Of a DNA stretch of 64,000 nucleotides, positions 6,003-22,309 are shown piece by piece. Under the pieces are notes generated by a model. It was given only the letters and a program-made list of their open reading frames with translations, searched no databases and was not told where the DNA came from. The stretch spans positions 1,048,545-1,112,544 of the forward strand of contig MU057416.1 in the NCBI GenBank assembly GCA_013265495.1. Reading direction: 5' to 3'. Source of the stretch: Vicugna vicugna. Taxonomy: Eukaryota. Position 1 is the stretch's first letter. Every line of letters starts with the position of its first letter. A program made the position numbers and the translations under genes.

Positions 6003-7139
6003 CATTCGCCAGCCCCGTTCCAGGCCTGCTGAAGCCGAGACGATGCTGAGGTCTGTGGAAGGTGGTACCCGAGGGACGGGTGGGTCAGGGACCAAGCAGG
6101 AAGGGCACACCCCCACGTGGAGGGCTTAATGCACGCAGGTCCGGGGCGGTGACAGTGGACACGTCTGTCACCTCGAGACAGACGTGTCCAGTGAAGGGGG
6201 AGGTCACTGGAATCCAGAGATATGAAAGGCTCTGCAGAAAAGAGCTCCCCTCAGGAGCTGAGACCCCAGAAGAGGGGCACAGGCACCCACAGGGAGGACA
6301 GTGGAGGGTCCCCAGCCTCTCCTCCCTCTTGTCTCCAGCAGATGCTGCCCCTAACTGAACCCAGTCAACAGCAGAGGGGTGGGGGAGCCTTCTGAAGCCA
6401 CCTCTGGTGGGAATGAGCAGGTCGGGGCAGCAGGGAGAGGGGATCTGAAGGGGAACGTGAAAGATGCCCAACATAAAGGGAGAGACAGAACTCTGTTTTA
6501 AACAACCTCCAGTGCTGTCTGGGTCTTCATCTCCGTAATTCCCTCGGCAACATTATTTGCTTGGCTTCTCCTCCAGCAGGACCGGTTCTAACACCAGCTG
6601 AGTGAAGGACGCTAATTTCCACTGGGCAATTCCCTTGAGCGTTTCCAGGGACTGCTGTTATCTCCTGCTTCCCTGTAAAAGTCAGGAATTCTCACTCCAG
6701 TCCCCAGGAGAATATTTATGTTCTTCCTACAAGGAGTGCCTATTGTTGCGTGGTGACACCTTTTTTAAGGATAATTAGAGCTCTCAGCTTTTCCTTTTAC
6801 CACTCAGGTGAGCAATGCACTGACTTCGAATGAATGAGGGCAGGTTTTTGGCGGCTTGTGAAGCCTGGAAATACTGATCAGTAAAACCCCTCGGACGCTT
6901 GCGTCTCCTGAATCTGCTTACCGCAGCCCTTCTTCCTGGTCGCCCGAGAGTACCAGCAATTGTGTTACCGTGATAAATCCTCCTCCCTGGGAGGGCACTC
7001 TTTTTTACCTAAAGTCACAATTTGCTCCTTCCTCTGGGTCACAACCTGATTTTTCAGGGTGACAGATTTATTGCTTGCTTTGTGCTCCAAAAAACAAATA
7101 GCCAGCATTGCTCAGAACGCAGCCCTGTCACAACAGCTC

Positions 7140-7720
7140 CCAGCGCGGGTGGGCCCCAGCGCTCGCGCTCCTGTCTGCGTGGGCAGAGGGAGGCCGTTTC
7201 CTCGCGGCTGCGGGCCTGGGCTGGAGGGCGGTGGTCAGGTCTAAGCCAAGCTGCTGGTGTAAGCAACTGGCAAGCAGGTATTCGCTGGCCGTGGTCTCCG
7301 GGGGGTTTTCTTCTTTGGAGGCGGCTCAAAAAATGCAGAGCACAGGGCCGCGTCTGACCTCCAGAGCGAGCCCGTTTTCAGCCCTCACGAAAGCCCACAG
7401 GCCCCACAGAGCGTCCCTGCAGCCTGAGAATGAGACTGTGGTGCTTCCACGGCCGGGGCGGGCCGCGGAGCCGAGCTCCCACGGCGGACCGTGGCCCCGA
7501 GAGGGCAGCAGCCCTCCTGTCCGCGCGACACCCGCGCTCCGTCCGCAGCCCCCTCCCCCCGGCGGCCCCGGGGCGCGGCCCGTGCGCGGGGCGGGGTGGG
7601 GGGCCTCGGTCTGCGCGTGTTCAGTTTTGCCAGGTCACGGAAAACAGGGAAGCACCAACGATGTGCACCCTCAGCCGCAGCGAGCAGAGGTCAGGACCAC
7701 GGACTCGGCACCCAGTGCGT
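7140..7720. promoter_or_regulatory. CpG-island-like GC-rich segment
   Basis: Dense CpG and GC boxes (ggggcggg at about 7455 and 7588); no adjacent exon recognised. Confidence 0.6.
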
Positions 7721-7900
7721 CAGCTTCCAACCCTGGCTCTGCTGGGTCACCTTGCAAACTGACTTAAGCACTCTGTGCCGCCGTTGCCTCATCTGTTCAA
7801 CGCAGGTCATTCTAGGACGTGCCTCATAGGGCTGCTGAGAGAATTAAAAACAATCCTGCTTACGACGCATGTGAAACACGGCCGCTTTGCCCAAGTACCA
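7690..7900 (+). mobile_element. MIR fragment (GC-shifted)
   Basis: ccctggctctgctgggtcaccttgcaaactgacttaagcactctgtgcc...cctcatctgt...cctcatagggctgctgagagaatta. Confidence 0.6.
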
Positions 7901-9163
7901 GGCGGTTTTCCTCAGGTCAATTCAGTGGGAATAAAGGGACATCTTCCCTGTGGTTTTCATTTCCCAGAATGACTCCTCACGCCATCTGCCACTCCTCTCC
8001 TCCACCGTCGGTCTTTCTCCTGCTGATTCATTGGAATTCTCCACGTCGCATCCTGGGCTCGTCACGTCTGTGTGTGGCAAGTATCTTTTCCCAGTTTATG
8101 GCCTGTCTTGTTCACTCCCCTTATGACATACACCGTATAGACGTTAATCTCCGGGAAGCACGAGTTTTCAGAAGAGAGTTAAGGCGCGGCCTCCGGAGAG
8201 CAACTGGCAGACCCTCCCCGGGCTTTGCATTAAGTCAGACTGGCCTAAGTACCCCATCACGTTCTTAAGTCAAAGTAAACTTACAACTGACACTCATTCA
8301 TAGTACGATGCTCAGGGCTACACGGGGAATCACGCACAGGCCTGCCCGCATCGGGCTTCGCGTCGGCTGTGACGGGCACGTAGCCACATGGGAAGTTACC
8401 CAACACCACAAGGTGATGGCGTCCTTTTCCGGGGGGCCCACCACTAAGCGTTCTGCACAATTCATTCCTACATTCAGGGAACTCATTTCATAAGTCACAC
8501 CCACAAAGAAAGCAAAAGGGTGAAAAACTTGTCTCCTGCCCTCCTGATGGGGACCCTGGAAATGTCTCAGGTTAGTGTCCAAGCCACAAAAGAACAGTCT
8601 TCCAAGGTCGAATTAGTGGCCCACGGATGGGACCGCTGTCACTGGTCAGTGTCTGCGAGGATGCTCAGGCTACAGCTAAACCCCGTCCCTTCCCGTCCTT
8701 ACCATTCGTCTCTGGTCTCAAACACATCCCGCAGATGGGGCAACTCCCAGCCTTTAAAAAAAATCCCCATTACCCCATTTCTTGTGGACATTATGGTTCC
8801 TCCATGAGAGTTACTTGAGTTGTTCAAGGGCCTTCCCATATACGTCTTCAGTGGTCCGTGTTGGTTGGTTTTAATTATTCTTATTCTTAATCGTGTTGTG
8901 GTCCACATATGGCCTCCGTGGCCCGAAACTGTCTGAAGTCTATGGTGTCTGTTTCAATCCATTCAACGTTGGTCCCTAGTTCAACGTCAGTTATCAGAGA
9001 ACAAGAAATATTTTAAAACACAGTTTTTCTCTGGATATGAAAAATACCACAAATTTATTTAAATAACCAAAACTTATTCCAAAAATAAAAAACCTGCTCT
9101 AGAGTTCTTATAATAATTATTAGAAGCCAAAAGACGAGTTGGCAGAATTAGTATTTAAATTCT

Positions 9164-9305
9164 CTTTTTTAAATTTTATTATTTTAAAATTTGGGGGGGT
9201 AACTAGGTTTGTTTACTTTTTATTTTAATGGTGGTGCTGGCAATTGAACCCAGGACCACAAGCATGCTAAGCGGGCACTCTATCACTGAGCTATTTCCCT
9301 CCCCC
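9164..9305 (-). mobile_element. vic-1-like SINE with target-site duplication
   Basis: Antisense head ...attgaacccaggacc...actgagctatttccctccccc; TSD taaattct at 9156-9163 and 9306-9313. Confidence 0.9.
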
Positions 9306-9359
9306 TAAATTCTGATTTATTGTTTCAAGTCAATAAATGTTCTCATTCATAACACTAAC

Positions 9360-9480
9360 AGGTAATATTAAATGTGTGTCTTTGTGCCAGGCACTGGGCA
9401 AATCACTTTACACAAATTATTTTATTTTATTCTAACAGTAACCCCACATGGTAGGGAGCACTGGCATTCCCACTGTTCAC
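9360..9480 (-). mobile_element. MIR fragment
   Basis: tgtgccaggcactgggcaaatcactttacacaaattattttatttta...ccccacatggtagg. Confidence 0.55.
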
Positions 9481-10992
9481 AGTCCCTCTGAATCGGGGCT
9501 TGCCTATTCAAGTCAGCAAACATTTCTTGTGCACCTGCTACGTGTGAAGCAGGTCGAGGTGTTTGGGAGGCTCTGAAGGTCACTCCACAAGAGATGGGCG
9601 CTACAAGAGAGTAGGAGGAGGAACTGGAGGAAACACAGTGGTTTCGGGAGCTCAGACAGGAGCGACCGTAGCTCTGAAGGGACCCGGAAAGATGTCACTG
9701 AGCGGATGTTAGCCCGTCATGGCTGCAAACCAGGGAAACCCAGCCCCGTCCTCCCCCCGCCACAGGCAGGCGCGCGGGCAGAGCCCGCAGCGCGCCGTCC
9801 GGACTCCTGCGGGAACTCGGGTCTCCACCCCTCGGCCCCCGTGCCCCCGTGGTCTCTGATTTCGTGTCTCAGTCCTGCTCGTTGGCGTGTCTCCCGCTCG
9901 TGAACTGCTTCCTGGTCCTGACGCATTCTGACCTCAGCCTCTCCCACGTCCCCCGGAAAGATCAGTTAGGACCCAACAGATCTCATCCGTGTAACTCTTT
10001 ATATAAGGAAATACATGGAGACTTAAAGGAAAATCATTATATCCCTGGAAGTAGGGAGGAGAAAACACAGACAGTAAAATACACTGGGTTGTAGTCAGAA
10101 CACTCGGGCCTTCGAGGGGAGCAGCTTGGGCAGAGAATGACTCCCTTCACTACAACCCACTCATATTTTTCCATTTTCATTTTGTAGATGATCTGTAATA
10201 ATATGCCGTCAAAAAATAAATAAATACTTCCACAGGAATCAGCAGAATTTTCCAAGGTCCCATCCAAACCACTCTGTACACATTCATAATCTGAGTAACA
10301 GAATTCCTTTTCTTCTGTCAATCACCCTGTTTTGTTTTCTTTCTGCGGTCCGCAGAAGCTACCCAGAAAACACCGTGCGCAGCGAGCTCACTGGCATGGC
10401 CTCTGCTACTCCTTGGCTCATTGAGGGCAGCCTGCCTCCGGCAAGACGTCTCAGAAGATGGGCAGTGACTCAACCAGCCGTCTGCGTTTCGTAATTCCTT
10501 CCAACCCGCTTTACAGCTCGCCTCCTCTGGGCGTGATCAACCCACAGGGAGGTAAAACCACTGTGGGTCCTTCGTGGCCAGTCCTAGGGTCTGTAATGAA
10601 AATATTCTGTCCTCATCATCACTCAGGGAGACACGTGGTCCAATGGAGAAAGGTCTTGAGAGCCAGTCTGCTGATAAACCATCGCTAGTCCTCGCCTAAA
10701 TCAATCCCTTGGTTTCTTCTGCGGTAAGGGCGTTGGGGGTGAACTGAATAATCTCTGAAATCCTTTGTAGTTATAGCATTTTCTGACCAGACTACTTTCC
10801 ATTCTAGACGTGGTGCTGCCCATCAGGCTGGCTTCCTACAGAGGAAGGGTCCTTAGACATGGCAGAAGTTAGATTTCAGGTCCAATTATTAAGAATTAGA
10901 GTTTCTCTGTGAGTTGAGATAAAGCCACACCACCTCTCCATCTGACAGGGACAAATTGACTCTCTCCATGAGACAAGTCAAACTCATAAAAA

Positions 10993-11102
10993 TTTTATAT
11001 ACATACATATATAATTTTTAACGGAAGTATTTTGAATTGAACCCAGGACCTCGTGCACGCTAAGCACACACCCTCCCACTGAGCTATACCCTGCCCCTCC
11101 CC
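10993..11102 (-). mobile_element. vic-1-like SINE
   Basis: attgaacccaggacctcgtgcacgctaagc...actgagctataccc; flanked by ctcataaaaa duplicates (10983 and 11106). Confidence 0.88.
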
Positions 11103-11500
11103 AAGCTCATAAAAAATTTTAAAGTTACATTTAAAAGCTTTTTACACTTAAAACCCCGTCACTGTTATCACTGAGCCATTCAAATACTTACGAAGAAAAT
11201 GTGCTTATAAGGGACCAGATAAAGATGCCTCCAGCAAGACAGCCTCCGCCCCGCGTCCCCGTGGACACCGGTGGGGCCCCCCCAGGCCCCCTCCCCATCC
11301 CGTCCTCACTCTGACTGTGTTTTCCTCTGTGGTCCTTACCAGCATCCAACACAGGATCTCATTTAACATGTTCTCTGTCTCCTCTCTATGAAGGCAGAGT
11401 TTTGTCCGTTTCATTCACTGTTGAATTAGTAGCACCCAGAAAAGTAGTAGGCATGAGCGTATAAATAAGTAGTATTTACTGTAAGGATCTAACAATTGCC

Positions 11501-11702
11501 TTTTTGATTGAAGTATAGTCCATTTACAATGTTGCATTAGTTTCTGTGGACAGCATAGTGATTCAGTGATACATAGATACATATTCTTTTTCAGATTCTT
11601 TTTCATTATAGGTTATTACAAGATATTGAATATAGCTCCCTGGGCCGGACAGTCGACCATGTTACTTCACGTTATTTATCTATTTTACATGTAGTAGTGT
11701 GT
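11501..11702 (-). mobile_element. L1 3'-end fragment with TSD
   Basis: Antisense L1 tail (ttgaagtatagtccatttacaatgttgc...); TSD atctaacaa(t/c)tgcc at 11487-11500 and 11703-11716. Confidence 0.85.
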
Positions 11703-12476
11703 ATCTAACAACTGCCATTTTTAAAGGAGGGCATATAACCAGACTAAAAGCAGCCCTTTCTTCTGGATGTTTCCAGCTCCAGATTACAAGAGCCCACTTA
11801 CCCCCTCCCCACCAAACAAACTAGAGACATGAACACCGCTCATGGGTCATTGTGACACAGTCTGAAGTCCCTGACACAAACCAGGGGATGTGGCCTCAAC
11901 ATGATGGGAGAATCAAACACGTCACCCCAGAGTGCGCGGAGGGAGCACAGGTGTCTGAAGGGCTTTCCTGCTGGAGAGCATCAGTCTGCACGCGGCCTCA
12001 GCTCTGCCTCCTAAACCTGGGTTATAAGGAGAATTATCATCATTATCCACAACAAAACGCCACTCTGGTTCTGACCTACATGCCGGAAGAGAAGAAAACC
12101 AGGATCTCTTCCCGTGAACGATCCCCCACCTCCAGCGCCTGTTGCAGGCAGCGGGGTGGGCAGTGGGACGCCCGCTGCAGAACGGGGTGGCCGTTCCTGC
12201 CCACCTGCCTCACGCTCAGCCCCGAGACTCCGGGCAGCCTGAGGGCACCGCGGCCAGACACGAGCTGCCGTGCAGCCTTCGGGCATCAAAGTCACTGCTT
12301 GCTTTCCTCCCAGAGATCGGAACGATCTTTTCAATGGCTGATACACAGAGTTTCGTTTTGTTTTTCCCTCTCGCCTTGCTCAGAAAATATTGGTTGATCA
12401 CTTCTAGGAAGCTCAGACCTGGAAACTCAAAGAAACCCTTCACTATCCAGCAACGCACCCCGCCCCCACCCAGCCC

Positions 12477-12630
12477 NNNNNNNNNNNNNNNNNNNNNNNN
12501 NNNNNNNNNNNNNNNNNNNNNNNNNNNNNNNNNNNNNNNNNNNNNNNNNNNNNNNNNNNNNNNNNNNNNNNNNNNNNNNNNNNNNNNNNNNNNNNNNNNN
12601 NNNNNNNNNNNNNNNNNNNNNNNNNNNNNN
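12477..12630. other. Assembly gap (154 N)
   Basis: Run of N; right edge abuts the poly-T tail of a SINE. Confidence 0.99.
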
Positions 12631-12740
12631 TTTTTTTTTTTCTCCGTTTTGTTTTGGTTTTTAATGGAGGTACTGAGGATGAACCCAGGACCTCATGCAT
12701 GCTAAGCATATGCTCTACCACGGAGCTATATTCACCCTCC
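12631..12740 (-). mobile_element. vic-1-like SINE
   Basis: tttaatggaggtactgaggatgaacccaggacctcatgcatgctaagc...ggagctatattcaccctcc. Confidence 0.88.
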
Positions 12741-13015
12741 AGAAGTCTTGCTTTCTTGTCTCACTGTTAATTTACCACCTCCAGGCTCATCCTTTCTGTA
12801 GGCAGAATTCAGTGTCCTGCACTTATGGGACTGCGGACCCTGTTTCCATGCTGGTCACCAGCCAGGGGCCACCTGCAGCCGCTGGAGGCCGCCCACGTGC
12901 CTGCAGTGTGGCCCTCTCCACCCCCAGGTCAGCGGGAGAGCATCTCATCCATCGCGGGTTTCCTGGAGTTGGTAAGTGGTGACCCACCACAGTTGCCCAG
13001 CCACAAACTTAGCCA

Positions 13016-13150
13016 TTTTTCTTCTTTTTTTTTGCAGGGGGAAGTAATTAGGTTTACTTGTTTACTTATTTTAATGGAGGCACTGGGGATTGAACCCGGG
13101 ACCTCGTGCATGCTAAGCACAGGTTACCTCTGAGCCATACTCTCCCCCTG
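13016..13150 (-). mobile_element. vic-1-like SINE
   Basis: gggggaagtaattaggtttac...atggaggcactggggattgaacccgggacctcgtgcatgctaagc. Confidence 0.88.
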
Positions 13151-13990
13151 CCTTTTTTTTTTTTTTGGTCATCTTTCTTAACCCCCCTTCCCCTCACTCC
13201 CCAGGTCTGTTCACTTCCATCTCCACACGTGTATCACATGTACCCACCCATCCCCGCCCCCCAGCTGTCATTATTCTAGGCCCAGCAGCCATTATCTGTC
13301 ACCTGAGATTTTGCAACAGCTTCTTAACTGCTCCCTCACCTCCCTGCAGCCACACAATCCAGTCTCCTTCGTGCACGCAGAAGGCTCCTTTCTGCTATAG
13401 ATCTAACCTGATTTTTTAAAATTGCCTTCCTAATTCCCTGAGGGCGTGTGGAGCAGAGACTGCCCATCAAAGGGGCTCACGTGGGGCCGAGCGACTGGAC
13501 CTCCTGTCCAGGGGGGGGGCCTGTGAGAAGAGGGTGACCTCAGTTTGAAAGCTGACGCCAACTCTGAACTTTTTCACCCATATTACCTGTGGTTTCTGAA
13601 AATTTAGCAAAACTTGATTTTTGCATTCTACGCAACCTCATTTAAAAGCAGCTGCCTTTTGAAGGTGTGCTAGACAACTGGGTCGTATTACCAGCATCAT
13701 CAAAAAATGCTTCCCCCAAAAGAGTGCCATGTGCTCCCAGCCCACGACGGTCCTGTGAGAGTCTCCACGTTGCTCGCACCTTGAGAAGCCAGGGCGCCTC
13801 CTGCAGACCGTCAGCTCTCACTCTAGATTAACGCACCTCGAATGGTTCTTCACCCCGCAGCTAACTTCCCCTCAGAGCAACGGTTCACGGACCAAGGGGG
13901 AGTTATTCACCCAGTTACCATTTACTCGGAGCCTCCTAGGTACCAGGCTCTCACGGAAAGAACCATGTCCCTCCCCGACCCAGCGCCTCA

Positions 13991-14208
13991 GGGCTTTGGG
14001 CTCAGCAGACTCGCGCCACGACAAGTAAAGAGACGCGCAGCGAGGTCCCGCTGCGGAGCCCGGGGAGCTCTGTTCGGTAGCTTGTAACAGCCTGTGATGA
14101 AAAAGAATCTGAAAATGAACATATACGTATTTATAACTGAATCACCATGCTGTCCACCAGAAACTCGCACAACATGGTACATGGACTATACTTCAATTAA
14201 AAAAAAAA
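13991..14208 (+). mobile_element. L1 3'-UTR fragment whose 5' half is heavily A/T->G/C substituted
   Basis: Colinear with the copies at 22971 and 37410; ends gactatacttcaattaaaaaaaaa. Confidence 0.85.
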
Positions 14209-14289
14209 TCTCAAGCCTCTAGGAGCTACTCGTTTCCTCCAGTTGGCATTAAACCTGCGTTGTGTGGTCGCCGGCCTGAAGCGCATCCC

Positions 14290-14530
14290 TGAGGCGGCGC
14301 GGCCGGCGGCTGCCACCCGGGGCTACGGAGTCGCACAGCCTGCGGCCCGGTCCCAGCTCCGCGGCTTCCTCGCCGCGGGATCTGGGGCAAGTCGCTCAAC
14401 CTCCCTGCACCCCAGTTTCATTATCTGAAAAATACCAAACCCGGGGTTGTTATGAGAATGAAACAAAATAAGATCTATAAGCCTTGAGTATTTCTCTTTG
14501 CCTGCCCCACAGAAATGCTCAATAAATGGC
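14290..14530 (+). mobile_element. MIR element (5' part GC-shifted)
   Basis: ggggcaagtcgctcaacctccctgcaccccagtttcattatctgaaaaat...ggttgttatgagaatgaaa...atgctcaataaat. Confidence 0.7.
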
Positions 14531-14760
14531 AGCTATACTGGGGGCACATCTCCTTTGCTTATCAGTTTTCCCTTGTGCCTGACACCCATAGGTGCTAAAT
14601 GAAACAAATGAGTTCATTTTGGTCACATAATTGGACATCAAGCAGGTATTGAAAGCATAACTGAATTCCTTAATTCACTGAAAGAAAATCTGAGCGCCTA
14701 CTCCGTTCCAGGCACAGGAACTACAGCAATCAAGACAATGGGTAGAAATCCCTGTTCTTG

Positions 14761-14916
14761 GGGGGAGGGCACAGCTCAGTGGTAGAGTGCATGCTCAGCA
14801 TGCAGAGGGTCCTGGGTTCAATCCCCAGCACCTCCATTAAACATAAATAAATAAATAAGCCAGCCAGCCAGCCAAATACCCTCCCCACCCCCACACTCCC
14901 CCCCAAAAAACTTAAA
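14761..14916 (+). mobile_element. vic-1-like SINE with 15-bp TSD, inserted in an L2 remnant
   Basis: gggggagggcacagctcagtggtagagtgcatgctcagcatgcagagggtcctgggttcaatcccc; TSD aaatccctgttcttg at 14746-14760 and 14917-14931. Confidence 0.92.
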
Positions 14917-15494
14917 AAATCCCTGTTCTTGTGGAGCTTAGAACAGAAGAAAGACAGAGCCAAAGCATAATGCTCATGGAAAGGCTACACTGCCTGTGAA
15001 GGAGACAAGTGCGAGAGGACAGCACAGAAGAGGCTACGAGGGACTTAGGCCGCAGAGCAGTGGGCTGCAAGTTTAAATCCTCCTTGAAAAGGTTCTATCT
15101 GAGCAAAACCTTAAAGGAGGTGAGAGGGCAAGCCGTACAGTTATTAGGTGGGTGGGGCAAAGCCCGTGAAAAGGGCCTAGGGCAGCAGCACACCCAGCCA
15201 AGGAGCAGCAGAGGACCAGTGGGACTGGAGCAGAGTGAGCAAGAGGGAACAAGCAGTGGGTGGGGGTGGGGAGGGGCAGACCTCGCAGGGCGCTGGGGGC
15301 CACAGGGAGACTCCGTTCTTCCCAAACGAGACAGGAGCCCCATCGAACAGAAGGACGTCAGATACAGACACAGACACAGATGTAGGTACGATGGCGATAC
15401 TCAAGTCAGGTCAGTCTGGCTGTTTTCTTCAGAAGAAACTAGACAAGGAGAGACCAGGTAGGCAGCTGTCATAATAAACCACATGAGATGAAAA

Positions 15495-16150
15495 CAGTAC
15501 GAATATTCCTTAAAAAAACTGAAAATGCACCTACCCTTCGATCCAGCCATCCCATTCCTGGACATACATCTGGAGGGAACTCTAATTTGAAAAGATAACA
15601 CATGCACCCCAGTGTTCATAGCAGCACTATTTACAACAGCCAAGACATGGAAGCAACCTGAGTGTCCATCAACAGATGGCTGGATAAAGAAGCTGTGGTA
15701 TATTTATACAATGGAATACTACTCAGCCATAAAGGAATGAAATAATGCCATTTGCAGCAACATGGATCGACCTGGAGATCATCATTCTAAGTGAAGGAAG
15801 CAAGAAAAAGAAAGAAAAATACCATATGATGTCACTCATATGTGTAATCTAAAAAGAAAAAGGACACAAATGAACTTATGTACAAAACAGAGACAGGCTC
15901 ACAGACAAAAAACAAACTTATGGCTACCAGAGGGGAAGGGGGGTGGGGAGGGATAAACTGGGAGTTTGAGATTAGCAGACACACTACTATATATAAGGCA
16001 GATAAACAACAAGGTCCTACTGAACAGCACAGGGAACTGTCTATTCAATACTTTGTAATGGCCCATAATGAAAAAGAATGAAGACGCATGTATATGTGTA
16101 GAACTGAATCACTTTGCTGTGCACCAGAAATTAGCAAAACACTGTAAACT
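15495..16150 (+). mobile_element. L1 fragment (ORF2 3' end and 3' UTR)
   Basis: gatccagccatcccattcctgg...cacatgcaccccagtgttcatagcagcactatttacaacagccaagacatgg...gactacttcaattaaaaaa. Confidence 0.9.
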
Positions 16151-17796
16151 GACTACTTCAATTAAAAAACCACGACCACAACAACAGGTGAGCGATGGCG
16201 GCAGCTTGAACAAGGGGCGGTTGTCAGTGATCAGATTCTGGACGTGTTTTCAAGACAGAGTCACCAGGATGCCTGAGAGAAAGTGGGAGTCAACGCTGTC
16301 TCCAAAGTTTCTGGCTGGAGCAACCGAATAAACGAGGCTTCCCCGCCCGCGGAGGCTGGGAGCAGGCAGAACGGGGTAAGGGGCCCGGGGCACAGTCGCA
16401 GCCCCAGTGGGCTGGCGTTCTTAGCCTTGCAGCAGAGACGCTGTGCGGCATCCCGGAGTTCAGGGGAGCCTTCATGTGGGATTTATAAACGGGGAGGAAA
16501 GGTACGTGATAAAAAATAAAGTCATGCCAATGTTACAGGTTAGGAGCAAAATGCTCCCAGAGCTCAGCATAAGCAGCTTGGGCGAGGAGGGGGGTCACAG
16601 GGCAGAACCGGGGGGCATGAGCACGTGCCCGGCGTGAGGATGGAGAGGGCAGATTCCCAGAGGAAAGCGGAGTCTCTGAGGACCAGGGGCAGCCGGGGCT
16701 TCGGGGTCTGAAAGGCCAGCCAAGGGGCAGGGGCAGAGGGCAGGGGAGGGACAGAAAGGAAGAGGGTAGCCAGGCGACAAGGGATGTGGAGACACCAGCA
16801 TTAATGTGAGACTCTTGTTTCTGGGGGTCTCCGCTTTATCCGGCCTTGAAAGTTTTGCCTGTTTGATGCTCACCTAAAATGACGCTGAGGGCTTCCGGTT
16901 TCTAGTTCCACGTATAAGGAGACTGGAAGTCACCACTCGATGGGGAAAAATCAAACCCCAGACCTTAAGATCAGAGGGCCAGGCCGGTGCACCCAGAGAG
17001 TCACGGCTTAAGGGACTCAGACGGCCGGGCACGGGAACCGAGCTGCGGGAAGCCCTGAACTGCGGTTGGCAAACTGCTGGCAGCTGAGTGCAGACCCCTC
17101 TGAGAGTGAAAAAGTCCAGGGGGACCAGTCATGGCGGTGGGGCGGGGGGAAGCCATGAAACTGTGAGACTTACCTCCAGGACTCAACCAGGCTCAACAGG
17201 AAATACTGGAGAAAAGCCCTCTGGTCCCTGTTCTTCAGGAGGCCCGCCCTCAGCAGGAGCCAGTTAACCACAGCCTGGCCTGCTGGGGTGGGGTCATCAG
17301 AGCCTCACCTACCTGGGGAGGAAGGAGCAAACCCAGCCCAGTCTAGCCATCTTGTTCCACCTAACGGGAGAATACAGCTCAGAAACACCTGTGAGCCCAC
17401 CGCCCAGAGGCACAGGCCCACTAAAGGCTGACACCTGCTCGCAGGACCGTGGCCCTACTCACAGCGTTAGCCCCTCTCTACGCTTCCCCTCCCCCACACC
17501 TCTCAAGGCCAACCTACAGCAGTTCCTTTAGCTTGGCATTTCACAACCAGCCGTCACGAAAAAAATCCCAAGGCAAACCGAAAGGCAAAGAGCACACCTT
17601 GAAGATGCACAGCAAGCATCACACTCCTTCTTGGTTCTGTCCTGGGATTTCCAGGTGCCCGCTGACACTGGCCACCTGTTCTTGCCGGCTGGCCGCTTGA
17701 CCCGCTGGCATCCTTCGCGTATCAGTCACAGCATTTTAAATTCCCAGTCTGACAATTCCAACATCCCTGCCATATCTGGTTCTGATGCTTGCTGTC

Positions 17797-17911
17797 TTGT
17801 TTTTAATAAGGTTTATTCATTCATTTATTTATTATGGAGGGACTGGGGATTGAATCCAGAACCTTGTGCATGCTAAGCATGCCCTCTGCCACTGAGCTAC
17901 ACCCTCCCCCC
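17797..17911 (-). mobile_element. vic-1-like SINE inside the old L1
   Basis: atggagggactggggattgaatccagaaccttgtgcatgctaagcatgccctctgccactgagctacaccctccccc. Confidence 0.88.
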
Positions 17912-18637
17912 TGCTGTGTATCTCTGTTGTTAAGGTTTTAAAATAAGAATTATGCCCAACTTCTCCTTAGAAACCTTGCAAGCAAGAAGAGTGGAGTGAA
18001 ATATTTAAAGAGTTAAGAGAAAAACTTACCAACCTAGAATTCTGTTCCCTGTGAAATTATCCTCCAAAAATGGAGAATAAATACTTTCTCAGACAAACAA
18101 AAATTAGAAGAATTTATTGGCAGTAGACCTGCCTTGCAAGAAATGTTAAAAGAAGTTCTTGAGAGAGAAGGAGGTTAATACAAATCCAAACTTGGAACTA
18201 CATGGAAAAAGTAAGCCCTTGAGGAAGAAATAAGTGAAAGTAAAATAACAACTTTCTTTTCATTTTCTTAATTGCCCTACCAGGTAACAATTTGTTCAGA
18301 ATAATACCAACAACATGTTGGATTATGTATGTATATATCATTTTATACATGTATGTATATGCATATTTCTGCTTATGTGTGTTTATATACATGAATGAAT
18401 GACAGCAAGGATGCCAGGCACAGTGGGGGGCGGGCTGGGGAGGAATTAGGGTTACTCTGTTAGTGTGAAGCACCTGCACTGCCTGCAAAGAGCTACCGTG
18501 CAATTTGCGCCAGGACTTGGATTCGGTGGAAGTGTCTATGGCAAACTCTAGCGCAGCCACTAAACAAAGTAACAAAGTGCAACAGCTCTGCTCAGAAGAG
18601 AGAGAGAATGGAATCATGTAAAACACTCAGTTAAAAC

Positions 18638-18661
18638 CACACACACACACACACACACACA
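18638..18661. repeat. (CA)n microsatellite
   Basis: CA run seen directly. Confidence 0.9.
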
Positions 18662-18664
18662 ATG

Positions 18665-18995
18665 GCAAGGAGTGGGAAATGGGCAAAATGGGTGAAGGGA
18701 GTTAAAGGTACAAAGCTGCAGAAACAAAACAAGTCAGTCAGGAGGGCATGGCGTACAGCATGTGGACTGTGGGTAACAATACTGTGTATTAATGTTGTGT
18801 ATCTGAAAGTTACTAAGAGAGTAAGTCATAAACGCGATCACGAGAAAAGCAAAGTGTAACTTCGCGTAGTGACACATGTTAACTAGACTTGTGGGGATCG
18901 CTTCCAACATACACGAACGTGGAATCACCATGTCGTCTACCTGCAGCTAATGTAATACATCAATTACACTGCAATTTAAAAAAAATAAATAATAA
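18665..18995 (+). mobile_element. Nested L1 3'-UTR fragment of a different (L1MA-like) subfamily
   Basis: gggaaatgggcaaaatgggtgaagggagttaaaggtacaaa...gtacagcatgtggactgtgggtaacaatactgt...caattacactgcaatttaaaaaaa. Confidence 0.7.
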
Positions 18996-19220
18996 AACTA
19001 AAAACCACAAAAGGAAGACAGAGTGGGAAACAAAAGTAAGAATAAAGAACACCAACAAATAGAAAACTGTAAGGATTATGGTCGATGTTAACCCAACTGG
19101 ATTAATAGCCACTTTGAATGTCAACTAAAAGGCAGAGATTATCAGAGTGGGTTAAAAACCACGACCCAACTATATACTGTCTACAAGAAACCCACTTTTA
19201 TAAATAGAAAGACACATATT

Positions 19221-19318
19221 GGGGGGAGGGTGTAGCTCAGTGGCAGAGCGTGAGCTTAGCATACACGAGGTCCTGGGTTCAATCCCCAGTACCTCCATTA
19301 AAATAAAATTGTTAAAAA
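19221..19318 (+). mobile_element. vic-1-like SINE
   Basis: ggggggagggtgtagctcagtggcagagcgtgagcttagcatacacgaggtcctgggttcaatccccagtacctcca. Confidence 0.9.
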
Positions 19319-19844
19319 GGCAAATATAGATTAAAATAAAGCTAGGGATTGAGATTTCTAACGAATCTCACATCCGTGAGGTCAGTCATCCTAACTGCTC
19401 CTGATTCACTGAGTTTCCGCCCATGATTTGAATATGAAGAAGGGATACGTTCTTGGCCACCTGGCTCACTTGCCCTTTTACAGTAAAACTAGAGAAAGGG
19501 GTCCATGCAGCCGTCCTCCAGGTGAGTGGAGCAGAGCGCTCTCGGGATCGCCCACCCTGAGGGAGAAAATCGTATGGAGGGGCTGGAAAAAGACACCTTT
19601 TAGATCCTTCTAGCTTTAATTGATTCAGCCGGCATTTATTTTACTGAGGGCCTTTGAAGTGCCAGGCCCTGTGGAAGGTGCTGATACAAATACACAGAAG
19701 AAAACAACACAAGGAAAAATCTCCGCCCTCGTGGGAGGTGTTTCATCTTCTCTGAGCCCGTGATGCGGCAGAGCCACCGATCCAAAGGGGAGCTGAAACC
19801 TGAGCGTTCCCGAGGGTTAGTTCTTGAGTGAAAAGTAAGTGAAA

Positions 19845-19972
19845 GGGGAGGGTCTAGCTCAGTGGCAGAGCACGTGCTTAGTGTGCACAAGGTCCTGGGT
19901 TCAACCCCCCGTCCCTCCACTAAAAAGTAAATAAAAGATAAATAAACCTAATTACCCCCCAAAAGAAAAAAA
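19845..19972 (+). mobile_element. vic-1-like SINE
   Basis: ggggagggtctagctcagtggcagagcacgtgcttagtgtgcacaaggtcctgggttcaacc...aaacctaattacccccc. Confidence 0.9.
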
Positions 19973-19979
19973 GTTAGCT

Positions 19980-20620
19980 GCATGTATCCGGAAGTGGGCG
20001 TGTTCCAGAAGGAACTAACTCGAAAAGCTGCGTGCACCCCAGTGTTCACAGCAGTGCTGCTTACAACAGTCAAGACACGGAAGCACCTAAACGTCCATCG
20101 ACAGATGACGGGATGAAGAAGCTGTGGGATATTTACACACTGGAATACTACCCAGCCATAAAAAATAATAAACCAATGCCATCTGCAGCAACGTGGATGG
20201 ACGTGGAGATTGTTATACTAAGTAAAATAAGCCAGAAAGAGAAAAAAAAATACCATATGAAATCACTTATTTGTGGAATCTAAAAAAAAAGACACAAATG
20301 AACTTACTTACAAACAGAAGCCGATTCACAGACATAGAAAACAAACTTATGGTTACGGCGCTGGGGGGATGAGGGGGATAACCTGGGAGTTTGAGATTTG
20401 CAGACACTAACTACTATACATAAAACAGATAAACAAGTGTGTACTGCAGAGCACAGGGAACTATGTTCAATATCTTGTAGTCACCTATAATGAAAAGACT
20501 ATGAAACAGAATATACGTATGTACACATGTGGCTGAAACATGATGCTGCACACCAGAAATGGACACCACATTGTAAACTGACTACACTTCAGCTAAAAAA
20601 AAAAATTAAAATTAAAAAAG
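19980..20620 (+). mobile_element. L1 fragment (ORF2 3' end and 3' UTR)
   Basis: ORF 20032-20283 carries L1 C-terminal-like text (LWDIYTLEYYPAIK, AATWMDVEIVILSKISQ); ends in polyA. Confidence 0.9.
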
Positions 20621-22309
20621 TGAGCTGTTCAAAGGTTTCTCTGGCTTTTACTTTGCTTGTTAGTTTGTCTGTCTGTCTGTTTTTTCATTCAGTAGAGACT
20701 GTGAACCAGGTAGTCACCGCGACCACTTTCCAGAGCATCAGCACGTGAGAAATCAAGGTGGAACATAATTCTTACAAAACTTCCCTCCCTCGGGAGTCCC
20801 GGGAAGAAATGGCCAGAACGCGAGTTTTCTAGATGAAAGGAAAAAATTGTGCAACTTCTGGAATCAATAAATGCCCGCCTCCGTCCTCTCTGCAGCCACC
20901 TGTGTGGAACCTCCCGGGGCGCAGTGTTTTGTGCTGATGTTTGTGCTGATGTTTGTGCTAACGTTAGCACACGCTCCGGGAAAATCAAACCGTGCTCTTC
21001 AGGCCGGCGGGCCTCTTAAAAGCTTCCCCCCTCCCACATCTCCTCAGTGAGACTGACGTGTCCGCAGGGGAATGGAAGGCAGGACACAGCCCCGGCCACC
21101 TACCAGGACGACGGCTAAACTGTCCAGTGCATCCTCCCCAGGTCACTGTCTCGCGCACCTGCCTGGATTCACCAACGGAAGACCGAGTGTCGGGAGGAAA
21201 CCCTGGGGCTCACACGGCCAGCCTCCCCAGATCTCAGGCCTCGGGCACCCTGTGTTCCCTCCGCCCGAAACCCCATTTCCCAAGAGGTTTACTTGGCTGG
21301 CTGCTTCTCCTGGAAGCTTCCAGAGCTCTTACTTCACATCAGAAAGGCCTTCCTCCACCACCCCTCCTTCCAAAGCAGGACCTGCCCCCCCGGGCCCCAG
21401 CCTCCCCACCCTCTGCAGTGATACAGCCGCCTTTCGACACAGGCGCAGGGGTCACTGTGAAATGATCTCAGTTATTCCTTTTCCCAATCTTCCTTGAATG
21501 TGCAGGTGGCTGGTGGGTCTGGTCCTCCCCTTCGCAGCCAGCACGGTGCCCAATAAAGACCCAACATCCAATGAGCAAGCACTCGCCCTGCATCACCTGA
21601 GGGGGGTCTACGGCGGAGTCTGAGGGTCATTTTTCCAACTGCTCCATTTCCATGGGTGAAACCCCTCATAAGCAAGTCAGAAGCAAAGACTGGGGCAATT
21701 ACCCAGGGAGTTCAGGTGCAAAGCCCCCACCCTGGACTCAGATTTCCATTTCGAGAGAAAGTGAATCTTCCCAGTCCCTTCAGCTCCCTTGACTGTGTGT
21801 GAATCCGACTATCAGCAGCTCCTTTCCCGCTGACCGTGGGCAAGAGGTTTGTCTCCTTCCGCAACGGTTGGGGAGTTTCAAGAGGCTGAGGCCTTAATGC
21901 TTTATGGCTACACGTGCGGGCGGGTTTGGGTCTTGATTTTGCTTTTTACACGTTACTTAGAAAAGAATTGGAAAAGCAATGAACTCAGCTCTGAGATCCC
22001 GTCCACTCTGTGCCCAGTTTCCTGTGTTTTGAATAACAAGGGTTAACTGCCAACAGGTAAGTCTCTCCCACCTCTAAAGCGCACATATTTTTCCTATAAC
22101 CCTAGGATGGTTTGTGAGCGGGAGTCTATCTTTTTACTTTACTATCAGGGGAGAGAGCATAGTTGTTGTTTTAACCATTGCTTTAATACGTTTCCTCCTC
22201 TGCTGAACTTGGTTCACCACAAAGTACGGAAGATTTTTGTAAGCAGGCTTCCCCGAAAAGCTTTTACAATCATCATTTACCCACTGAAATGCTTCACTCG
22301 CACAAAGAG

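What the first reader, a model, noticed from the sequence alone, without database searches (positions are those of the whole stretch)
13991..14100. L1 3'-UTR copy rewritten by one-way A/T->G/C substitution (GC-biased gene conversion scar)
Seen: this 110-bp stretch aligns by eye to sister L1 tails in the window (22971, 37410, 15961). For example attaacagacacacaccact becomes ctcagcagactcgcgccacg, and actgtacagcacagggaactata becomes gctgcggagcccggggagctctg. Against a rough consensus of those copies I count about 30-35 A/T->G/C changes and essentially no G/C->A/T changes. The rest of the same copy (14100-14208) is much closer to normal. The changes include A->G, T->C, A->C and T->G, so ADAR (A->G only) or APOBEC editing of the retro-copy does not fit. 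Established: GC-biased gene conversion (gBGC) produces such weak-to-strong clusters at recombination hotspots. Inference: an unusually strong or long-lived hotspot acted here after the L1 inserted and created CpGs in a repeat that normally loses them.
Basis: partly seen in the sequence, partly recalled or inferred. Interest (0 to 1): 0.7.

Follow-up and report, generated by a model that had tools for sequence, protein, structure and literature searches.

The report
One-way AT-to-GC rewriting of repeats
An old L1 tail and the neighbouring MIR repeat have had about 40% of their A/T bases turned into G/C at this one locus, which looks like an ordinary but very clean footprint of GC-biased gene conversion.

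Summary
Against genomic sister L1 tails, 13991-14100 carries 30 W>S and 0 S>W changes in 102 scored columns. It is the most extreme of 47 L1 tails examined; the next has 16/3.

New here is an old paralogous copy of window 7682-21614 on another contig. It shares the same L1 insertion and the flanking repeats and keeps the AT-rich state. With sister copies as outgroup, the window branch has 26 W>S and 0 S>W; the paralog branch has 5 and 6. The rewriting therefore happened in place, after insertion and after duplication.

It is not L1-specific. A second lobe at 14250-14400, partly a MIR, shows 14 W>S and 1 S>W. The whole duplicated segment is GC-shifted, 1290 versus 531. The L1 3' end between the lobes is at background.

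Contigs from four public runs reproduce lobe A, so it is not an assembly artefact. RNA editing, a GC-rich subfamily and a hairpin are rejected.

GC-biased gene conversion is the best explanation, but recombination itself was not measured. This is a new instance of a known process.

The parts
13991..14100 (+). Lobe A: the 5' part of a truncated L1 3' UTR tail, rewritten W>S. GC is 0.63, with 10 CpG and CpG o/e 0.94.
   Evidence: 30 W>S and 0 S>W against 29 sister rows; window branch 26 W>S, 0 S>W; paralog branch 5 and 6. for CpG.
14101..14208 (+). The remaining L1 3' end and poly(A) run (14199-14208). GC is 0.31 and the substitution level is near background. This is the trough between the two lobes.
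   Evidence: window branch 6 W>S, 1 S>W; 13 versus 5 over 14100-14249; bin 14100 has 8 of about 70 paralog-W sites changed.
14250..14400 (+). Lobe B: flank plus the 5' part of a MIR, rewritten W>S. GC is about 0.74, with 20 CpG, 18 of them absent from the paralog.
   Evidence: 37 window-S/paralog-W against 2 the other way; within the MIR part 14290-14400, window branch 14 W>S and 1 S>W; paralog branch 0 and 1..
14290..14548 (+). MIR-type SINE copy shared with the paralog. Its 3' part, 14401-14548, is not GC-shifted (2 W>S, 3 S>W).
   Evidence: nhmmer E = 4e-76 to a profile seeded with the paralog copy, plus 30 further copies in the held DNA.. The name MIR is recalled, not given by any library.
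13661..14510 (.). Two abutting patches that meet CpG-island sequence criteria (13661-14130 and 14141-14510). They are built from repeats.
   Evidence: 200-bp scan with GC >= 0.55 and o/e >= 0.65. For 13700-14420, GC is 0.57 with 48 CpG and o/e 0.83.
7682..21614 (.). Segment paralogous and colinear (inverted) to G000:C9998:550671-527466, at 74-82% identity per piece. GC is 0.487 here against 0.449 in the paralog.
   Evidence: Searches find only these two copies in the genome.
11488..11707 (-). Neighbouring L1 tail, shared with the paralog, used as a control on the same branch.
   Evidence: window branch in the lobe-A columns 8 W>S, 2 S>W.
15932..16171 (+). Neighbouring L1 tail, shared with the paralog, used as a control on the same branch.
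   Evidence: window branch in the lobe-A columns 4 W>S, 2 S>W.

Best explanation
After an old segmental duplication, the window's copy evolved under a fixation bias that favours G/C over A/T alleles. This is GC-biased gene conversion, meaning biased repair of A/T:G/C mismatches in meiotic heteroduplex DNA. The bias was moderate across the whole 14-kb segment. It was very strong in two narrow lobes, 13991-14100 and 14250-14400. There, about 40% of ancestral A/T sites became G/C, almost no G/C site was lost, and a CpG-island-like patch was built from an L1 tail and a MIR.

Shown: the direction, the timing (after insertion and after duplication), the locality, the spectrum, and that the sequence is real. 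Inferred: that the cause is recombination-associated biased fixation and not biased mutation or selection. The retention of the new CpGs suggests, but does not show, low germline methylation.
For: 1. Polarised counts with the paralog and 18 sister tails. In lobe A the window branch has 26 W>S, 0 S>W, 2 W<>W and 1 S<>S; the paralog branch has 5 W>S and 6 S>W; 4 W>S and 1 W<>W are shared. The branch difference gives p = 2e-5 for W>S and p = 0.025 for S>W.
2. The MIR part of lobe B has 14 W>S and 1 S>W on the window branch, against 0 and 1 on the paralog branch. Two unrelated repeat families are therefore hit in the same way.
3. The spectrum is mixed: A>G 15, T>C 6, A>C 4, T>G 1. There is no significant A versus T asymmetry (19/38 versus 7/23, p = 0.18). 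This fits biased fixation of ordinary mutations.
4. The region as a whole is asymmetric: 1290 window-S/paralog-W sites against 531 the other way, over 12,586 aligned sites (p = 1e-72). CpGs are 321 window-only against 82 paralog-only. There are 10 CGI-like patches in the window segment and 3 in the paralog segment.
5. New CpGs are not depleted: o/e is 0.94 and 0.97, and CpG/GpC is 10/14 and 20/24.
6. No coding or RNA-family signal explains the patch. No ORF of 90 aa or more crosses it, 0 of 148 long ORFs hit Pfam, and Rfam gives only tRNA-SINE hits elsewhere.
7. Literature. [quoted passage not shown] PMC3469460 (passages read) states that new CpGs arise as a by-product of BGC.
Against: - No recombination rate, DSB map, methylation data or allele-frequency spectrum was available, so the link to recombination is untested.
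- The trough at 14100-14249 between the lobes is not predicted by a simple single-hotspot model. It stays unexplained.
- W>S gain is not enriched around the 8 other poly(dA:dT) runs of the segment.
- Lobe A shows no listed variation among the four runs, so ongoing activity is not shown there.
- In lobe B, three of the six differences in run X1 are CpG transitions towards A/T. CpGs there are therefore not fully protected.
- The family reference is a majority of genomic sister copies, not a curated subfamily consensus.
Confidence: 0.7

Rival explanations
1. Selection built a new regulatory element, such as a CpG-island promoter, an enhancer or GC-rich binding sites, from the repeats. The G/C gains would then be adaptive.
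For: The patch 13661-14510 meets CpG-island sequence criteria. New CpGs are retained at o/e of about 0.95. The two lobes have sharp edges.
Against: - The same one-way shift, in weaker form, covers the whole 14-kb segment. The window holds 31 such patches in 64 kb, which is hard to ascribe to site-specific selection.
- About 40% of all W sites changed, with no motif-like pattern seen.
- No ORF, Pfam or Rfam signal was found.
- Expression and chromatin were not tested.
Confidence: 0.12
2. A local mutational bias, not a fixation bias, turned A:T into G:C. Candidates are error-prone repair synthesis or transcription-associated asymmetry.
For: A>G is the commonest class, 15 of 26. The substitution rate in lobe A is 29 changes in about 101 sites, against 11 on the paralog branch.
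Against: - A->S and T->S do not differ significantly (p = 0.18), and lobe B shows no asymmetry.
- The absence of S>W changes (0 of 35 against 6 of 35) needs suppression of fixation, not only extra W>S mutation.
- I know of no mammalian germline process with this spectrum (recalled knowledge, not from any call).
Confidence: 0.1
3. The GC-rich stretch was copied in from another GC-rich locus (ectopic gene conversion), or it reflects a GC-rich L1 subfamily.
For: Four W>S changes are shared with the paralog and may be subfamily or older changes. A few other L1 tails are moderately shifted: 15/2, 12/3, 12/1.
Against: - Whole-genome searches with 13981-14215 and 13700-14100 find no other copy of the GC-rich version. 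Only the locus itself covers query bases 1-46, and the only long match is the AT-rich paralog at 71% identity.
- The stretch aligns base for base to the family with only W>S changes.
Confidence: 0.03
4. It is an assembly or polishing artefact, or RNA editing (ADAR/APOBEC) of the L1 transcript before insertion.
For: The assembly is fragmented (12,405 contigs) and has an N gap at 12477-12630. A>G is the largest class.
Against: - Twenty listed runs from 7 studies and 3 organism labels hold at least half of the sampled words.
- Contigs of X1, X15, X4 and X5 span 13450-14161 with 1, 1, 4 and 4 other letters. None of the listed differences lies in 13991-14100 (16 rows of that table were not shown).
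- The paralog shares the insertion but not the changes, so editing before insertion is excluded. T>C, A>C and T>G also occur.
Confidence: 0.02

Closest known systems
gBGC tracts, also called biased clustered substitutions (human and chimpanzee phastBias tracts; GC-biased fast-evolving regions)
   Same: A dense, lineage-specific cluster of substitutions that is almost all W>S, includes transversions and lies in presumably neutral sequence within a GC-rich region. PMC3744432 and PMC3157837 describe such tracts; I saw only their abstracts in a search listing.
   Different: Each lobe is very short (about 100-150 bp) and very saturated (about 40% of W sites). There are two lobes with a background-level gap between them. 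No recombination data tie it to a hotspot. It is polarised by an in-genome paralog, not by sister species.
CpG islands enriched or created by gBGC at hypomethylated, PRDM9-independent hotspots
   Same: A CpG-island-like patch with undepleted CpG arose by W>S change. PMC11161765 (passages read) links gBGC, hypomethylation and the GC-richness of CpG islands.
   Different: Methylation state, PRDM9 status and hotspot use are unknown for this organism and locus. The patch is made of an L1 tail and a MIR, not a promoter.
Lineage-specific CpG 'beacon' clusters
   Same: High density of lineage-specific CpG gains: 10 in 110 bp and 18 in 150 bp that are absent from the paralog. PMC3469460 (passages read) uses a threshold of 20 per kb and discusses overlap with BGC.
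   Different: That work compares primate orthologues. Here the comparison is between paralogs and covers a much longer time span.
GC enrichment of one copy after relocation into a highly recombining region (the mouse Fxy / pseudoautosomal case, recalled from memory and not read here)
   Same: One of two homologous sequences becomes strongly GC-enriched through W>S substitutions after a change of genomic location.
   Different: That case concerns coding and intronic sequence of a gene straddling the pseudoautosomal boundary. The chromosomal position of this window is unknown, and no telomere repeat was found in the first 6 kb of its contig.

Membership tests
L1 (LINE-1) 3' UTR tail | Aligns along its length to other L1 3' ends and ends in a poly(A) run | tested here: met
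   The nhmmer profile of 18 tails places it at 13991-14213. Poly(A) is at 14199-14208.
L1 (LINE-1) 3' UTR tail | Target-site duplication flanking the insertion | tested here: inconclusive
   No duplication was evident by eye in the flanks shown, in the window or in the paralog. No formal search was run. The element is old.
gBGC tract | Substitutions clustered above the regional level | tested here: met
   bins 14000 and 14300 are the top two of 126; the lobes have sharp edges.
gBGC tract | Strong W>S excess over S>W on one lineage only, including transversions | tested here: met
   Searches (26/0 against 5/6; 14/1 against 0/1), and for the substitution types.
gBGC tract | Acts regardless of function, so it is seen in neutral repeats of different families | tested here: met
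   The L1 tail and the MIR are both affected. No ORF, Pfam or Rfam signal.
gBGC tract | Coincides with high recombination or a hotspot | not testable with these tools
   No recombination or DSB map is available. There is only indirect regional GC and CGI-patch density.
gBGC tract | W>S variants segregate at higher derived frequency than S>W variants | not testable with these tools
   Only contigs of 4 runs were laid. They drop rare variants and give no frequencies.
CpG island | Length >= 200 bp, GC >= 0.5-0.55, CpG o/e >= 0.6-0.65 | tested here: met
   13661-14130 (GC 0.56, o/e 0.75) and 14141-14510 (GC 0.55, o/e 0.85).
CpG island | Unmethylated in the germline, or has promoter activity | not testable with these tools
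   No methylation or expression data. Near-expected CpG is only suggestive.
ADAR/APOBEC-edited retrocopy | A single editing class (A>G, or C>T/G>A), already present at insertion | tested here: not met
   Four classes occur. The paralog shares the insertion but lacks the changes.
Segmental duplication | Long colinear homology that includes shared repeat insertions, at a second locus | tested here: met
   11 colinear pieces, 12,586 aligned sites. Three L1 tails and a MIR are shared. Only two copies exist in the genome.

The most novel reading that the evidence does not exclude
The two lobes mark the two sides of one long-lived, PRDM9-independent double-strand-break site. The site would sit on the nucleosome-excluding, A/T-rich L1 end and its poly(A) run. 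Heteroduplex repair on either side drove G/C gain, while the break zone itself, repaired by gap filling, escaped. In this way a CpG island was born from an L1 tail and a MIR. If so, base-resolution substitution footprints could map ancient break sites.
Probability: 0.1. Interest if true: 0.55.

Novelty: new member of a known kind. Interest (0 to 1): 0.3.

Why it matters
This is a clean natural experiment. Two copies of the same 14 kb, carrying the same repeats, have sat in different genomic places for tens of millions of years, and only one has been driven towards G/C. The paralog gives base-by-base polarity without needing other species. The locus shows that an AT-rich L1 tail can be turned into CpG-island-like sequence with no sign of function. 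That is a warning for anyone reading 'accelerated' GC-rich elements or orphan CpG islands as adaptive. It adds no new mechanism.

Tried and rejected
- Hairpin or compensatory-stem idea (lobe A pairing with lobe B, the trough as loop). Inverted matches exist. However, the 421-nt fold has z = -1.5, with 11 of 100 shuffles as good. Of 300 dinucleotide shuffles, 143 give a duplex at least as stable. Rejected.
- Poly(dA:dT)-centred lobes as a general rule. The 8 other A/T runs of at least 8 bases in the segment show no flanking W>S rise. No support.
- Gene context. 0 of 148 ORFs (87 aa or longer) hit Pfam. Rfam gathering hits are 6 tRNA-like SINE heads only. Short exons were not tested.
- Telomere proximity. 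There is no TTAGGG run in the first 6 kb of the contig, which is 1.67 Mb long, and 991 of those bases are N. The other contig end could not be fetched.
- Deeper orthologues. The run search returned only near-identical holders under three organism labels. X4 and X5 give near-identical figures and may be one data set. X4 and X5 have no contig over 14242-14373, so nothing can be said about lobe B in them. No distant relative was available to date the changes.
- Earlier notes of this scan: three look-ups, nothing found.
- A curated (Dfam/Repbase) subfamily consensus was not on hand. Majorities of genomic copies were used in its place.

Full report
**What is there**

Window 13991-14208 is a 5'-truncated L1 3' tail ending in a poly(A) run at 14199-14208. 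It aligns to other L1 tails in the window and across the genome. The window is G000:C107:1048545-1112544 in a 2.03-Gb mammalian assembly of 12,405 contigs.

In one search, genomic matches to the focal copy cover mostly query bases 58-228. Nothing except the locus itself covers the first 46 bases.

**Check of the observation**

I aligned the focal tail with 29 genomic sister tails and counted against the column majority.

| Stretch | W>S | S>W | W<>W | S<>S | Unchanged | Scored columns |
|---|---|---|---|---|---|---|
| 13991-14100 | 30 | 0 | 3 | 1 | 68 | 102 |
| 14101-14197 | 9 | 1 | 0 | 0 | 83 | 93 |

Some of the 29 rows are truncated in the first stretch and add noise to the majority. I therefore repeated the work with the 18 rows that are full length there. 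The 12 rows dropped were:
- the locus itself (L001);
- the window's own second copy (L010);
- ten truncated rows (L003, L004, L009, L013, L014, L015, L020, L027, L029, L030).

A wider control used an nhmmer profile of these 18 tails on all 342,641 bases I held. It gave 68 hits, 47 of them with at least 80 scored columns in this stretch. The focal copy is the extreme, with 32 W>S and 0 S>W of 108 columns. The next copies are 16/3 and 15/2. Loci L033-L038 in that set were found through similarity to the focal GC-rich part, so they are biased towards GC-richer copies.

**The key new fact: a paralog**

A genome search with 13700-14100 found a second locus, G000:C9998, that matches both the flank and the L1 part at 71% identity.
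- The homology is colinear and inverted over window 7682-21614 and C9998:550671-527466. It consists of 11 pieces at 74-82% identity, with 12,586 aligned sites.
- It does not extend further within the 166 kb of C9998 that I fetched.
- Searches with three separate parts of the segment find only these two copies in the genome.
- The paralog shares the focal L1 insertion, two other L1 tails and a MIR-type SINE. The duplication therefore postdates those insertions.
- Two tRNA-derived SINEs, at about 13045-13150 and 14760-14861, fall in gaps of the alignment. They probably inserted later.
- Pieces matching the paralog version also appear among the contigs of runs X1 and X15 (records 8 and 13-16; checked at 14484).

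**Polarised counts**

Sites where the paralog agrees with the family majority assign a change to the window branch. Sites where the window agrees assign it to the paralog branch (MIR rows).

| Stretch | Window W>S | Window S>W | Paralog W>S | Paralog S>W |
|---|---|---|---|---|
| Lobe A, 13991-14100 | 26 | 0 | 5 | 6 |
| L1 3' end, 14101-14197 | 6 | 1 | 1 | 1 |
| Neighbour L1 at 11488-11707, same columns as lobe A | 8 | 2 | 3 | 1 |
| Neighbour L1 at 15932-16171, same columns as lobe A | 4 | 2 | 3 | 1 |
| MIR part of lobe B, 14290-14400 | 14 | 1 | 0 | 1 |
| MIR 3' part, 14401-14548 | 2 | 3 | 1 | 3 |

Further details for lobe A:
- The window branch also has 2 W<>W and 1 S<>S changes.
- 4 W>S and 1 W<>W changes are shared by both copies and so predate the duplication.
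- The 26 W>S changes affect 26 of the 61 A/T sites whose ancestral state is fixed by paralog and family together.
- Fisher tests: window versus paralog W>S, p = 2e-5. S>W 0/35 versus 6/35, p = 0.025. Focal versus the two neighbour tails, p = 1.5e-6.
- Substitution types: A>G 15, T>C 6, A>C 4, T>G 1. A->S (19 of 38) does not differ significantly from T->S (7 of 23), p = 0.18.

**It is not L1-specific**

The pairwise alignment shows that the GC-rich block at 14260-14400, which looks like a CpG island, is the 5' part of a MIR. In the paralog this MIR is still TG/CA-rich.

I collected MIR copies from the held DNA by two rounds of nhmmer seeded with the paralog copy. This gave 32 hits, of which 30 served as the family reference. 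The resulting counts are in the table above.

At 25-bp resolution, window-S/paralog-W sites against the reverse are as follows:

| Stretch | Window-S / paralog-W | Window-W / paralog-S |
|---|---|---|
| 14000-14099 | 32 | 4 |
| 14100-14249 | 13 | 5 |
| 14250-14399 | 37 | 2 |

There is a weaker shoulder at 13925-13999. The thing is therefore a two-lobed patch of about 400 bp, with the L1's own A/T-rich end and poly(A) at background level in the middle.

**Regional setting**

- Over the whole duplicated segment the window has S where the paralog has W at 1290 sites, and the reverse at 531.
- CpGs are 321 window-only, 82 paralog-only and 52 shared.
- By a 200-bp scan (GC >= 0.55, o/e >= 0.65), the window holds 31 CpG-island-like patches in 64 kb. 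The 166 kb of C9998 holds 19.
- Within the duplicated segment there are 10 such patches in the window and 3 in the paralog.
- Among the 126 100-bp bins, 14300 and 14000 are the two strongest.
- In the lobes, CpG is at the level expected from base composition: o/e 0.94 and 0.97, and CpG/GpC 10/14 and 20/24.

**Is the sequence real?**

Twenty of the 24 listed public runs hold at least half of the sampled words of 13640-14760. They come from 7 studies under three coded organism labels.

I laid contigs of four runs on the stretch.
- X1 and X15 (organism A), X4 (organism B) and X5 (organism C) each have one contig spanning 13450-14161, with 1, 1, 4 and 4 other letters.
- The listed differences lie at 13557, 13754 and 13942. 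None lies in 13991-14100. Sixteen rows of that table were not shown, so at most one unlisted difference per run could fall there.
- X4 and X5 give near-identical figures and may be one data set.

Lobe A is therefore not an assembly artefact and was already fixed before these three labels diverged.

In lobe B, X1 differs from the assembly at six places within 14315-14393. Three of them are CpG transitions towards A/T at sites where the paralog agrees with the window. That lobe is still variable.

**Mechanism**

The pattern has four main features:
- many W>S changes of all four types;
- virtual absence of S>W;
- restriction to one lineage;
- indifference to the repeat family, on top of a regional GC shift.

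This is what GC-biased gene conversion is established to produce.
- PMC3744432 and PMC3157837 describe such tracts; I saw their abstracts in a search listing.
- PMC3469460 notes that BGC creates CpGs passively, and that methylated CpGs would then fall behind GpCs (passages read).

As my own rough arithmetic, not a tool result: the W>S rate in lobe A is about 5-7 times that of the paralog branch. This would need a strong population-scaled bias averaged over the branch.

The link to recombination, and the suggestion that the patch is unmethylated in the germline, are inferences. The trough between the lobes is unexplained.

**Rivals**

- A GC-rich subfamily is excluded by the paralog and the sister copies.
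- Editing of the L1 RNA before insertion is excluded, because the paralog has the same insertion without the changes.
- A donor locus for ectopic conversion was not found.
- A hairpin between the lobes is no better than shuffles.
- Selection for a new regulatory element cannot be excluded without expression or chromatin data. It does not explain the region-wide shift or the density of similar patches.
- A purely mutational bias does not explain the missing S>W changes.

**Verdict**

The gBGC reading is the best one, but it rests on pattern alone. The feature is larger than reported: two lobes inside a GC-shifted duplicate. It is a new and unusually clean example of a known process, and interest is modest.

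Noticed in passing
window 7682-21614 and G000:C9998:527466-550671: An old inverted segmental duplication, 14 kb here against 23 kb there, at 74-82% identity. It has only two copies in the genome. Its left edge abuts a CpG-island-like block at 7041-7890.
   Followed up: partly
window 14315-14393: Run X1 differs from the assembly at six places within about 80 bp of lobe B (X15 at two of them). The same run shows 1 difference in 712 bp upstream. Three of the six are CpG transitions.
   Followed up: partly
window 14017-14063: One contig in X4/X5 joins 14017 to 14063, skipping 45 bases of lobe A. Only 28 letters lie on the shorter side. It could be a deletion allele or a stray contig.
   Followed up: no
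window 13045-13150 and 14760-14861: tRNA-derived SINE copies that lie in gaps of the paralog alignment. They probably inserted after the duplication. Six further tRNA-like SINE heads reach the Rfam tRNA threshold elsewhere in the window (5091, 12665, 19226, 19848, 29467, 44478).
   Followed up: no
window 12477-12630: An assembly gap of 154 N. It is flanked by strongly A-skewed sequence on the left and T-skewed sequence on the right, and lies between two GC-rich blocks.
   Followed up: no
whole window: There are 31 CpG-island-like patches in 64 kb and overall GC is 47%. None of 148 long ORFs hits Pfam. The window looks like a GC-rich, repeat-derived region poor in long exons.
   Followed up: partly
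window 13880-13960: This stretch resembles the 3' part of a MIR in reverse orientation, by eye and from memory of the MIR sequence. It is shared with the paralog. The L1 may have landed between two MIR fragments.
   Followed up: no
They may be one data set filed twice.
   Followed up: no
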